Origin: Malacoraja senta
Taxonomy: Eukaryota
Direction: 5' to 3'
DNA: 64,000 bases
Assembly (NCBI GenBank): GCA_038087875.1
Contig: CM075995.1
Location: 932,001 to 996,000 of the forward strand
The position numbers and the translations under genes are program-made. The notes below the pieces were generated by a model. It worked only from the letters and a program-made list of their open reading frames with translations, was not told the DNA's origin and searched no databases. This document shows, piece by piece, positions 2,914 to 53,500 of this stretch. The stretch's first letter is position 1; each line of letters opens with the position of its first letter.

Positions 2914-37685
<34,772 letters not shown>

Positions 37686-41775: not shown

Positions 41776-41992
41776 AAAAAATGAAGCCAAGAGATCCTTT
41801 TCCCCAGAGGTGCTGTCTGACCCGCTGAGTTACTCCAGGTTTTTGTGTCGAACTCAGCATGAATGTTGATCAGATGCCTCAGTAGTGTTAAAATATTAAG
41901 TTTCCATTTATATTTTTGTTTTTGCTGTACTCTTGCATTCCGTTTGCTTTAAAGCACCGTGTAATCAGCGACTACAGTCTGGATGATCTGAC

Positions 41993-42099
41993 CATTATAT
42001 TGTCCTCTAACGTGTAACCAGCCATGTTGGAGCAGGGCTGTGAGCCTGGCAAGCTGGTACAGATCTGACCACAATTTCCACCAAAACATTCATTGATGT
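41993..42099 (-). pseudogene. Degenerate calcium-binding EGF-like exon (probable pseudoexon) upstream of egf exon 2
   Basis: ctttcag acceptor, then (D)INECFGGNCGQICTSLPGSQPCSNMAGYTLEDNIM. C5 and C6 are missing, the gtcaga donor is out of phase, and read-through hits a stop. Confidence 0.7.
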
Positions 42100-42599
42100 C
42101 TGAAAGATAGAATTTACAACAGTGTGACTATTTGCTGTTATTCTTCCACACAATGCAATGATTAGTCATGTTGCACATGTAAACAGCGTAAAATACTTGG
42201 CTGGAGGATTATTTTGTCTGAACACCTGAACAATGTTTCACACAGTTTGTCTGCAAATTATACTTCATAACATTATATATCAGTGTTGACATCCTTATCT
42301 TGATCATTATCCAGCACGACCTCTTTAAAGATATTTTTATTCAGAGTCATTTAAAACGAAAGACCATATTGGATAGTAAATTTAAGACCATACTTCCTTT
42401 TCTCTGCAACTCAATAAATGACCCGTGAGAATGCATTGTTGCAGGTTGTTTTTGCAAGTGAGATTGCTTGCATGGATCAATTGAAAAGGGGAATAAAATT
42501 ATTTAAAACATATTTTGAGAGTAGCTATTTTTCATTCACCATAATTTCACATTCTCTCATATCCTAATCTGTAAAATGTCCTGAACAGTATACAGTATA

Positions 42600-43372
42600 A
42601 AGTATAAAGTTTCCTTTATTGTCATTCAAACATAGTTTGAACGAAATGCATACCTTGCAGTCATGACAGAAAATAAAATAACAGAACACACAATGAACAC
42701 AGTTTAACATCCACCACAGTGAGTCTACCAGGCACCTCTTCACTGTGATGGAAGGCAAAAGTCTTAAAGTCCTTGTCTCTTCCTTCCTTGTTCTCCCTCT
42801 GCGTTGAGGCGATCCAGGCTTTCGATGTTGGGCCCCCCGCTGGGTGATGGTAAGTCCCGCGGCAGAATCTGAGCTCTGCGAACGGGCCGGTTCAAACTCC
42901 ACGGCCCTGGGCAGTCGAAGCTGCCACCCTCCAGTCCAGTGGACGAAGCTGTTGTTGCAGGAGCTCCGGAGAATCGGTCACCAACCTGGGACCTGCGAGC
43001 TCCCGATGTTGTCGTCAACTGGGCCCGCGGCCGAAGCCTCCGAGGCTCCGAAGTCGCAGAGCCACCACAGCCCCGAAGTCGGCCAGCCTCGCGATGGTGA
43101 GTCCTGGCTGCCTCCGGAGCCTCGGTCGGTCCCAGTTGGAGGTCGCTAGCTCCACAATTAGGCCTCAGCCAGACGGAGACGGAGACGAAGATACAACCAA
43201 GAAAAGGTCGCAACCCCCCGAAGGAAGAGACTAAAACAAGTTTCCTCCACCCCCCACACATACACAACTAAAAATAAACTAAAACATACGTCCAACAGGA
43301 CAAAAGAAAACAAAAAAAAGAAAAGACAGACAAACTGCAGGCGAGCCGCAGCTGCATGGCAGCGCCGCCACT
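42600..43372 (-). mobile_element. Unclassified non-autonomous retroposon family (related copies at about 48470-49180 minus and 61745-62488 plus)
   Basis: Shared T-rich 5' block, GC-rich GGAGCT-repeat middle, CCATCACAGTGA..CACTGTGGTGGATGTT block and AATAAA plus short-repeat tail. Confidence 0.65.
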
Positions 43373-50026: not shown

Positions 50027-50548
50027 TTGTCAAGCTGGAAACCTGGAAAGGGTACAGAGAAGATTAACGAGGATGTTGCCAGGACTAGAGGGTCTAAGCT
50101 ATAGGGAGAGGTTGAGTAGGCTGGGACTCTATTCCCTGGAGCGCAGGAGGTTGAGGCGCGATCTTATAGAGGTGTATAACATCATGAGAGGAATAGATCA
50201 GGTAGATGCTTAGAGTCTCTTGCCCAGAGTACGTGAATCGAGGACCAGAGAACATATGTTTAAGGTGAAGGGGAAAAGGTTTAATAGAAATCTGAGGGGT
50301 AACTTTTTCACACAAAGGGTGGTGGGTGTATGGAACGAGCTGCCAGAGGAGGTGGTTGAGGCTGGGACTACCCCAACGTTTAAGAAACAGTTATACAGGT
50401 ACATGGATAGGACAGGTTTGGAGGGATACGGGCCAAATGCGGGCAGGTGGGACTGGTGTAGCTGGGACCGCGTTGGCCGGTGTGGGCAAGTTGGGCCGAA
50501 GGGCCTGTATCCACACTGTATCACTCTATTACTAAGACTAAGACTCTA
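50027..50548 (+). mobile_element. CR1 LINE 3' fragment (duplicated at about 51950-52470)
   Basis: FFTQRVVGVWNELPEEVVEAG; (ACTAAG)n tail. Confidence 0.88.
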
Positions 50549-53500
50549 ACTTCAGGTCTCCACTCCCACCCTTTGATTCCTCTACCACCCCCAATGTTCC
50601 TACATGTACACTTCTTCTTCCCCTCTTCACCCGCTCCCTCTAACCCAGCTCCTTCCTCATCCACACCATTTGTGCAGCACCCACACAATCCACCCCCCGG
50701 GAGGCAGAAGGCTCCCGTGATGCAACGCGGAGCCGAACTGAAAAGAACCCGGCGGGCCGCCATGAAGGAAGACCTGGCAGGTCACCCACGGCCACAGGCG
50801 GTGGCAGGCCCGGTGGGGCCGCTGACCGTAGTCGCCGAGCTCAGCCCCGAAGAGCAGAGTCGAGGAGGTCAGAGCCACTGACGACGGCGGACGTGAGGAG
50901 TGGGCCGGTAGTAGAGAGACTGGGGTATTACCTCCAGCACCTTCAAGGTTGGCTGCAGGAGGTGTCCCCGGGACAGGAGAGGGACATTGGTTCATGGGCC
51001 GAACTGGTCAACGGTGATGGAGGTGGCCCTGCAGTAGCTTGGGGCTTACCTGGATGGGTATCGAGCACGTGGACCGGACTTTGGACTTTTGTAAATGGCG
51101 CCAAAATATAGCGACTCGTGAGCTATGCAAAGAGAATTTCACTGTGCAGTGCATATACGTGACAGACAACTACCATTGTTATTAGTTATTAGTTTTCCAG
51201 GATCTAGTTAATTAAAACATGTTTTTTTCATTTCACAGTCACTAAAACAAGTGGTATTGTAACTATGTACTTTTCAGAGGTGATCTACACATTTTGTTTG
51301 TTACTTGTAGGCTTACATGCATGCAATTTTATATTAAAATGTAGCTTCGATCTGTTTGGTCCATTAACTCGCAGGCACTTTTCAAGCACACATTTTGATT
51401 ACTTTCCATTCTACCATAGAAATATAAATATTTAACTTTATTTGTAATTCTATGATTCTACAGAGCTTGGCTGGGAACCTGGGGCTCACCAAAATTGTTC
51501 CCAATTGGGCCCCGCACCTTCTAAGGCCGGCCCTGGTCCTGAGATCCTGAGACCGATGCCGTCTGGAGCTATGCTCCTGGTACCCATGGTGGTAAGGTCG
51601 AGGGAGAGGTCCCTGACAAAGAGCAATCCAACCAAGACCTCAACGGTGGAACAGGCGGAGGATGATGGCTGACTTTAGTGAAGCGTCATAACGGCTGGGA
51701 AGGTGGATGAAGGATGCAGCAGAAAAGGGTCTCCGGTCGTCTTGGACTCCATGACCCAGATCTGTCAAGGACGTCTGTCTGTGCACCAGTCTCCCCACGT
51801 TAAACAAAGTCACGCACAGGCATCCTCCATACATGGAATCCACCCTACGACCCTATGGAGAGGAGAGGCCAAATAAAACCACGAGGAAAAGCACCTCATA
51901 TGCCCACTCAATAGTCCACAGCCCGATGGCATGAACATTGAATTCTCTGTTGTCAAGCTGGAAACCTGGAAAGGGTACAGAGAAGATTAACGAGGATGTT
52001 GCCAGGACTAGAGGGTCTGAGCTATAGGGAGAGGTTGAGTAGGCTGGGATTCTATTCCCTGGAGCGCAGGAGGTTGAGGCATGATCTTATAGAGGTGTAT
52101 AACATCATGAGAGGAATAGATCAGGTAGATGCTTAGAGTCTCTTGCCCAGAGTATGTGAATCGAGGACCAGAGAACATATGTTTAAGGTGAAGGGGAAAA
52201 GGTTTAATAGAAATCTGAGGGGTAACCTTTTCACACAAAGGGTGGTGGGTGTATGGAACGAGCTGCCAGAGGAGGTTGTTGAGGCTGGGACTATCCCAAC
52301 GTTTAAGAAACAGTTATACAGGTACATGGATAGGACAGGTTTGGAGGGATACGGGCCAAATGCGGGCAGGTGGGACTGGTGTAGCTGGGACCGCGTTGGC
52401 CGGTGTGCGCAAGTTGGGCCGAAGGGCCTGTATCCACACTGTATCACTCTATTACTAAGACTAAGACTCTAACTTCAGGTCTCCACTCCCACCCTTTGAT
52501 TCCTCTACCACCCCCAATGTTCCTACATGCACACTTCTTCTTCCCCTCTTCACCCGCTCCCTCTAATCCAGCTCCTTCATCATCCACACCATTTGTGCAG
52601 CACCCACACAATCCACCCCCCGGGAGGCAGAAGGCTCCCGTGATGCGGATGCAGCAGAAGCACCCGTGATGCAACGCGGAGCCGAACTGAAAAGAACCCG
52701 GCGGGCCGCCGTGATGGAAGACCTGGCAGGTCACCCACGGCCACAGGCGGTGGCAGGCCCGGTGGGGCCGCTGACCGTAGTCGCCGAGCTCAGCCCCGAA
52801 GAACAGAGTCGAGGAGGTCAGAGCCACTGACGACGGCGGACATGAGGAGTGGGCCGGTAGTAGAGAGACTGGGGTATTACCTCCAGCACCTTCAAGGTTG
52901 GCTGCAGGAGGTGTCCCCGGGACAGGAGAGGGACATTGGTTCATGGGCCGAACTGGTCAACGGTGATGGAGGTGGCCCTGCAGTAGCTTGGGGCTTATCT
53001 GGATGGGTATCGAGCACGTGGACCGGACTTTGGACTTTTGTAAATGGCGCCAAAATATAGCGACTCGTGAGCTATGCAAAGAGAATTTCACTGTGCAGTG
53101 CATATACGTGACAGACAACTACCATTGAACCATTGATCTTTGAGACTTGTCAGTGAGCGATGACATTTGCTTGATCAATTATAGTCTCCACAATACTTCA
53201 CTATACTTGCTAACGGAAAAGAATACCTGCAGACCATTGAAACATTCAGAGAACTCTTTCCAGTTGCACCTCAGCTTTCAAAATCTGTTAGGTGTGGAAG
53301 AAACATTGGCAAGCAGTCAAAAGTCCAGTTTCCAACAATGAAAGTGTACACAATTGTATCTTTGAACAATGCTCAAAGTCTGATCGGCTCTGTTTCATTG
53401 GGAGCTGTTATAAGTTGGTGAGTCTCGCCTTGGAAGAAATACAAATATATCTACATTGAGTAATAGAGTAAATAGTTTCAATTTTATTGCCGCTACACAT

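What the first reader, a model, noticed from the sequence alone, without database searches (positions are those of the whole stretch)
41993..42099. Decayed calcium-binding EGF exon upstream of the first YWTD propeller of egf
Seen: 4.3 kb upstream of exon 2, on the egf strand, a good acceptor (ctatctttcag) opens phase 1 into (D)INECFGGNCGQICTSLPGSQPCSNMAGYTLEDN, which fits the cbEGF pattern DINEC..C.Q.C...PGS..C. The C5 position reads AAC, and the end (AA TAT AAT G|gtcaga) looks like TGT-AAT-G|gt after a small frameshift. Known: mammalian pro-EGF, as recalled, has no complete EGF module before propeller 1, only a two-Cys remnant in exon 1, whereas LDLR-family proteins place EGF modules before the propeller. 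Inference: this is a fossil or dying exon of a longer, LDLR-like ancestral N-terminus. Loss of the C5-C6 pair together would leave disulfides balanced.
Basis: partly seen in the sequence, partly recalled or inferred. Interest (0 to 1): 0.72.

Follow-up and report, generated by a model that had tools for sequence, protein, structure and literature searches.

The report
Dead EGF-gene exon in skates
This is the broken remnant of an exon that, in most sharks, rays, birds, turtles and even starfish, gives the growth-factor precursor pro-EGF an extra calcium-binding module, and whose gene models lack it in skates, mammals and several other groups.

Summary
The feature is real and is a pseudo-exon of egf in a rajid skate. 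It is the orthologue of a 44-codon, phase 1-1 exon encoding a calcium-binding EGF (cbEGF) module between exon 1 and propeller 1 of pro-EGF. That exon is intact in 11 of 13 non-skate chondrichthyan genera, sturgeons, coelacanth, turtles, crocodilians, tuatara and birds, and in starfish, crinoid and hemichordate proteins labelled 'LRP4/5-like' whose propellers group with pro-EGF. The skate copy spans 42099-41976 (124 nt), longer than first read. It carries a 9-nt deletion, a +1 insertion and loss of C5 and C6; either candidate donor gives a frameshift and stop. Contigs of other organisms share the lesions and diverge there at intron rate. All 5 skate gene models skip it. In-frame skip models in sturgeon, paddlefish, zebra shark and coelacanth suggest the route: a skippable cassette became always skipped, then decayed. 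Models also lack it in bamboo sharks, amphibians, osteoglossomorph teleosts and therian mammals, implying about five independent losses. The module's function is inferred only.

The parts
41976..42099 (-). Pseudo-exon (124 nt = ancestral 132 - 9 + 1), orthologue of the N-terminal cbEGF exon of pro-EGF
   Evidence: tblastn E 8.7e-9 to sawfish pro-EGF; best score 130 to the N-terminal module against 78 for the best of 481 other EGF modules; 31 of 40 residues identical to sawfish once the indels are allowed for
42100..42125 (-). Retained splice acceptor and pyrimidine tract (phase 1)
   Evidence: Sequence; runs X11 and X20 carry a 12-nt insertion behind 42125, about 25 nt upstream of the AG
42074..42082 (-). 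Site of the 9-nt in-frame deletion between C1 and C2 (exact placement ambiguous)
   Evidence: Three-residue gap in the alignment; no gap here in runs X2, X11, X20
42035..42040 (-). Tyr-Thr before C4 changed to Gln-Pro; loses the cbEGF consensus aromatic
42026..42028 (-). C5 position reads AAC (Asn)
   Evidence: no difference listed here in runs X2, X11, X20
41996..41998 (-). +1 insertion (frameshift) near 41997
   Evidence: Homology resumes in another frame; shared by runs X2, X11, X20, and not removed in X4 by gap arithmetic
41986..41988 (-). C6 position reads GAT (Asp)
41970..41975 (-). Ancestral donor, now weak (ACT|gtagtc; gtaatc in runs X4, X11, X20)
   Evidence: matches 4 of 9 consensus positions
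41987..41992 (-).
37486..37685 (-). Functional egf exon, first exon of YWTD propeller 1
   Evidence: 94-96% identity to skate pro-EGF models

Best explanation
The segment is a non-functional pseudo-exon. Ancestral pro-EGF began signal peptide, two-Cys stub (the C5-C6 half of an EGF module, exon 1), one cbEGF module (this exon), propeller 1. The exon is symmetric (phase 1-1, 132 nt), so skipping it keeps the frame, and skip isoforms are modelled in several species that retain it. In the skate stem lineage skipping became constitutive, selection ended, and the exon gathered a 9-nt deletion, a +1 frameshift and about 12-14 amino-acid-changing substitutions, including C5 and C6. Skate pro-EGF is made by joining exon 1 to the propeller exon, as in mammals. 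Shown: orthology, lesions, sharing among skate-like organisms, intron-like drift, absence from skate models. Inferred: the order (skipping first, decay second), the timing, and the ancestral role. The likeliest role (about 50%) is a calcium-stiffened unit like the LDLR/LRP EGF pair, in which the stub's Tyr packs on the cbEGF hairpin, holding a conserved surface next to propeller 1.
For: Intact exon at the same position in 11 of 13 non-skate chondrichthyan genera and in sturgeons, coelacanth and sauropsids; 0 of 5 skate models carry it. Top scores go to batoid N-terminal modules. Both donors give a frameshift and stop. Run X2 is identical over 41865-42623; X11 and X20 have all their gaps outside the exon; X4 adds its own 5-nt insertion inside it. 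Run X11 differs at 5 of 124 exon bases against 24 of 534 flanking bases, Fisher p = 1.0, and 4 of the 5 change an amino acid. Exact 44-residue skip models: Stegostoma X4, Latimeria X4, Polyodon X4, two Acipenser isoforms. Packing rule for EGF-cbEGF pairs: PMC4826273, passages. Stub motif C-x-x-G-[YFH] in 22 of 23 retaining genera against 2 of 24 lacking genera.
Against: No RNA reads were laid, so rare inclusion is not excluded. The acceptor is still good. The drift test has low power (5 differences). 21 of run X4's substitutions were not listed, so C5/C6 loss is unproven for that organism. Absence from gene models can mislead: an older Scyliorhinus prediction lacked the exon but 6 of 6 RefSeq models of that species have it. 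The stub's aromatic itself survives in 8 of 24 lacking genera, skates included, so the co-decay is only partial.
Confidence: 0.92

Rival explanations
1. The remnant was co-opted as a poison exon: occasional inclusion causes a frameshift and early stop, and nonsense-mediated decay tunes EGF output.
For: The acceptor is intact and two GT donors follow; either inclusion gives an early stop.
Against: Exon divergence equals flank divergence. Two organisms have a 12-nt insertion in the branch-point region and one has a new insertion in the exon. The donors match only 4 and 6 of 9 consensus positions. No skate model includes it.
Confidence: 0.05
2. It is a stray fragment of another cbEGF gene (LRP, fibrillin, LTBP) or a duplicate of an internal egf exon.
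For: Generic cbEGF pattern; Pfam gives only sub-threshold EGF_CA and FXa_inhibition hits.
Against: Scores 130 to the pro-EGF N-terminal module against at most 78 to 481 other modules, internal egf modules included. Position, strand and phase match the intact exon, and so does the module-specific H-P-D tail.
Confidence: 0.01
3. The exon is intact in the animal and the lesions are assembly errors, or it is still included as a four-Cys module.
For: C1-C4 and the acceptor are retained.
Against: Run X2 matches with 0 differences (it may be the source sample), and runs X11 and X20, from other organisms, share the indels and Cys losses. No nearby GT restores the frame after C4 except a weak one at 81 nt, which would cut the module short.
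Confidence: 0.02

Closest known systems
N-terminal cbEGF exon of non-mammalian pro-EGF (e.g. chicken NP_001001292.2, sawfish XP_051901434.1)
   Same: Same position, phase and sequence family; 31 of 40 residues identical to sawfish.
   Different: Here it is frameshifted, lacks C5 and C6, and is absent from skate models.
LDLR/LRP 'EGF-precursor homology domain' (EGF-A, cbEGF-B, YWTD propeller)
   Same: Sawfish residues from the stub into propeller 1 align in one stretch with LDLR 340-535 (E 2.7e-28) and with LRP4 and LRP2 segments.
   Different: Pro-EGF keeps only the C5-C6 half of the first module, has no LDL-A repeats before it, and forms its own clade of propellers.
Lineage-specific exon loss through a skippable symmetric exon (pseudo-exonisation)
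   Same: Symmetric exon, skip isoforms in relatives, neutral decay in the intron.
   Different: The module is strongly conserved where kept (77% mean identity against 63% for mature EGF among 17 jawed vertebrates; 27 of 41 residues starfish to chicken) yet apparently lost about five times. The general mechanism is recalled, not taken from a paper read here.
Therian mammal pro-EGF N-terminus
   Same: Skate pro-EGF has the same layout: stub joined directly to propeller 1.
   Different: Reached independently; skates keep a readable fossil and the stub's Tyr. Mammalian intron DNA was not examined.

Membership tests
Calcium-binding EGF module (functional) | Six cysteines in EGF spacing | tested here: not met
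   C1-C4 present; C5 is Asn and C6 is Asp
Calcium-binding EGF module (functional) | Calcium consensus D/N-x-D/N-E/Q ... D/N ... Y/F | tested here: not met
   N-E kept; the Asn after C3 is Ser in this window (Asn in runs X4, X11, X20); Tyr is Gln; first Asp probably His
Calcium-binding EGF module (functional) | Pfam EGF_CA score above the curated cut-off | tested here: not met
   14.6 bits against 27; the intact hemichordate module passes
Orthologue of the pro-EGF N-terminal cbEGF exon | Lies between exon 1 and the first YWTD exon on the egf strand | tested here: inconclusive
   Upstream of exon 2 on the same strand; exon 1 is not in the window, so the other boundary is inferred
Orthologue of the pro-EGF N-terminal cbEGF exon | Closest in sequence to that module | tested here: met
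   130 against 78
Orthologue of the pro-EGF N-terminal cbEGF exon | Phase 1-1 boundaries, 44 codons | tested here: met
   124 = 132 - 9 + 1, with AG and GT at the expected ends
Pseudo-exon | Disabling lesions | tested here: met
   Frameshift and stop with either donor
Pseudo-exon | Neutral divergence | tested here: met
   5 of 124 against 24 of 534 in run X11; low power
Pseudo-exon | Excluded from mature mRNA | tested here: inconclusive
   0 of 5 skate models include it; no RNA run was laid
Poison (NMD) exon | Conservation above intron level and regulated inclusion | tested here: not met
   No excess conservation; inclusion itself not tested

The most novel reading that the evidence does not exclude
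Pro-EGF is a deuterostome-age protein whose N-terminal stub plus cbEGF module is a dedicated, calcium-dependent binding site for an unknown partner. It would give shark, bird, turtle and starfish pro-EGF a receptor-like or juxtacrine function, apart from releasing EGF, that was discarded independently in skates, bamboo sharks, teleosts, amphibians and therian mammals. The two-Cys stub of mammalian pro-EGF would be its orphaned cap, and the ambulacrarian 'LRP4/5-like' proteins would be unrecognised EGF receptor ligands.
Probability: 0.3. Interest if true: 0.72.

Novelty: new member of a known kind. Interest (0 to 1): 0.47.

Why it matters
The fossil itself is an ordinary pseudo-exon. It matters as physical evidence that the short, mammal-like N-terminus of pro-EGF is derived and has arisen more than once. 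It explains the two-Cys stub in exon 1 as the likely cap of a lost neighbour. It also points to a module more conserved than mature EGF among the species that keep it, with no known function, so comparing chicken or shark pro-EGF with and without the exon becomes a direct test of what the large pro-EGF ectodomain does. The intact exon is already in public annotation (chicken RefSeq). The loss pattern and the ambulacrarian orthologues were not found in print by the searches run here.

Tried and rejected
Whole-genome search: no genome held, so genome-wide copy number rests on the window and contig depth. Exon 1 search in six frames found nothing convincing. RNA: no RNA holder listed on record; no RNA run was laid, so there is no evidence on expression either way. 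AlphaFold model of sawfish pro-EGF: pLDDT under 50 over residues 1-33 and 38-87, uninformative for the stub-cbEGF contact. Scyliorhinus as a loss rejected. Ensembl-type bird and turtle skip models (P0139-P0148) were not counted as evidence of skipping because they may be projected from mammals. Squamates, monotremes, gar, bichir, lungfish, cyclostomes and amphioxus gave no informative N-terminus; their state is unknown. Paper searches found no description of this module or its loss. Earlier scan findings: nothing. The careful tree did not finish; the quick tree is cited.

Full report
Setting. The window holds part of egf on the - strand. Eleven exons from 37685 down to about 2913 match skate pro-EGF at mostly 90-98%, closer to Leucoraja and Amblyraja than to Rhinoraja, so the organism is most likely a rajid skate (inference). 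Exon 1 was not found in the window. No whole genome was available.

Observation. Sawfish pro-EGF hits the segment at E 8.7e-9. Scored against 589 EGF-type modules in the proteins fetched by then, the first 33 residues match the N-terminal module of pro-EGF best (130 for sawfish; range 72-130 over 108 such modules), and the best of 481 other modules scores 78. The exon is longer than reported. After a one-base insertion near 41997 the match continues in another frame as W-S-D-H-P-D up to a GT at 41975. The length, 124 nt, equals the ancestral 132 minus a 9-nt deletion plus one. C5 reads AAC, C6 reads GAT, and the Tyr-Thr before C4 reads Gln-Pro.

The intact exon in relatives. Searching with exon 2 and with N-terminal regions and opening clusters gave the following, read. 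An exact 44-residue cbEGF lies between exon 1 and propeller 1 in at least one model of 11 of 13 non-skate chondrichthyan genera: Pristis, Hemitrygon, Mobula, Narcine, Heptranchias, Mustelus, Cetorhinus, Carcharodon, Scyliorhinus, Stegostoma and Callorhinchus. It is also present in Acipenser, Huso, Polyodon, Latimeria, turtles, crocodilians, Sphenodon and birds, including the curated chicken record NP_001001292.2. It is absent from 5 of 5 skate models (Rhinoraja, Leucoraja, three Amblyraja isoforms), from 6 of 6 informative Chiloscyllium and Hemiscyllium models, from four amphibian genera, two osteoglossomorph teleosts and the 13 therian genera tabulated. On the accepted vertebrate tree (established knowledge) this needs about five independent losses. 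Only the skate loss is shown at DNA level. Absence from a model can mislead: an older Scyliorhinus prediction lacked the exon while 6 of 6 RefSeq models of that species have it.

How old the module is. Proteins labelled 'LRP4-like' or 'LRP5-like' in Ptychodera, Acanthaster and Antedon have the pro-EGF layout: signal peptide, two-Cys stub, cbEGF, two propellers, EGF modules, a juxtamembrane EGF-ligand-like module and a transmembrane helix. In a quick tree of 83 propellers from 27 proteins I chose, their first and second propellers group with vertebrate pro-EGF propellers 1 and 2 respectively, each at SH-aLRT 99, apart from LRP-type propellers. Their N-terminal cbEGF is 24-27 of 41 residues identical to sawfish, coelacanth or chicken. 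So stub plus one cbEGF is deuterostome-ancestral, and the ancestral N-terminus exceeded the mammalian one by a single module. Among 17 jawed vertebrates that keep it the module averages 77% identity, against 62% for propeller 1, 63% for mature EGF and 84% for the most conserved internal cbEGF.

The lesions are real and shared. Contigs of 4 of the 24 listed runs were laid on 41865-42665. Run X2 is identical over 41865-42623; it may be the source sample and is not independent. Runs X11 and X20, from other organisms, are about 4.4% divergent, and their gaps (14 and 13 letters) are fully explained by indels outside the exon, so they share the deletion and the insertion. No listed difference restores C5 or C6. 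Run X4 has a further 5-nt insertion inside the exon; 21 of its substitutions were not shown, so its Cys state is open. In X11 the exon differs at 5 of 124 bases and the flanks at 24 of 534 (p = 1.0); 4 of the 5 change an amino acid. The window differs from a batoid-shark consensus by at least 14 amino-acid-changing bases over about 96 sites (12 if two tied consensus positions are resolved the other way). That is roughly four to seven times the per-lineage divergence among these organisms, so the loss long predates their split; with Rhinoraja also lacking it, the skate stem is the likely place (inference).

How it most likely happened. The exon is symmetric, so skipping keeps the frame. Models that differ by exactly this exon exist in Stegostoma, Latimeria, Polyodon and two Acipenser genes. 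The simplest route is a skippable cassette that became always skipped and then decayed. The order is inferred. Skate models also imply that exon 1 now ends in C, which would turn the first calcium ligand from Asp to His (inferred).

What the module did. Sawfish stub, cbEGF and propeller 1 align in one stretch with LDLR residues 340-535 and with LRP4 and LRP2. In EGF-cbEGF pairs an aromatic four residues after C5 of the first module packs on the hairpin of the second, and a preceding domain raised calcium affinity at least 50-fold in Notch1 (PMC4826273, passages). The exon 1 stub is that C5-C6 piece. Its C-x-x-G-[YFH] motif is present in 22 of 23 retaining genera and 3 of 25 rows first listed as lacking, or 2 of 24 once Scyliorhinus is moved. 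Genera are not independent, and the aromatic alone survives in 8 of those 24, skates included, so this supports but does not prove a cap role. The structure prediction was uninformative here. I put a calcium-stiffened spacer or binding unit at about even odds; no partner is known.

Literature. Nine searches of the open library found no account of this module, its loss or ambulacrarian pro-EGF; most subscription papers are not covered. I read passages only of PMC2834686, PMC4914847 and PMC1618406. The last analyses only the ligand module, and PMC4914847 limited its ligand search to proteins with one EGF motif, which would exclude multi-module pro-EGF orthologues. I recall a 2007 chicken EGF cloning paper that may note the extra module; I did not see it. 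Supplements were not read.

Verdict. A confirmed pseudo-exon, ordinary as a genomic object, that marks an ancient and repeatedly lost module of pro-EGF. New member of a known kind; interest 0.47.

Noticed in passing
P0185 (XP_070544757.1), P0341 (XP_022087517.1), P0296 (XP_071954440.1): Hemichordate, starfish and crinoid proteins named 'LRP4/5-like' are pro-EGF orthologues by layout and propeller tree, with a juxtamembrane EGF-ligand-like module.
   Followed up: partly
P0012, P0038-P0042 (Chiloscyllium, Hemiscyllium): Bamboo and epaulette shark models lack the cbEGF exon and have also lost the first Cys of the exon 1 stub, a probable second loss within chondrichthyans.
   Followed up: partly
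window 28583-28684 (-): The EGF module after propeller 1 is shortened in batoids, with four or five Cys where Callorhinchus has a longer one; it is the least conserved module (45%) and one Amblyraja isoform gives no hit there. Possibly a second decaying module.
   Followed up: no
window 20587-24534 (+): Broken ORFs in an egf intron that look, from recall, like a DIRS-type retrotransposon (reverse transcriptase, RNase H, tyrosine recombinase); Pfam gave no hit for the three ORFs tested.
   Followed up: partly
window 50214-51108 and 52137-53057: Near-identical duplicated block, about 1.9 kb apart, in egf intron 1, containing repeat fragments.
   Followed up: no
window 37686-64000: egf intron 1 exceeds 26 kb, since exon 1 is not in the window.
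   Followed up: no
P0013, P0363, P0364: Some sturgeon and alligator predictions fuse an upstream leucine-rich-repeat/Ig gene to egf; probably annotation artefacts of neighbouring genes.
   Followed up: no
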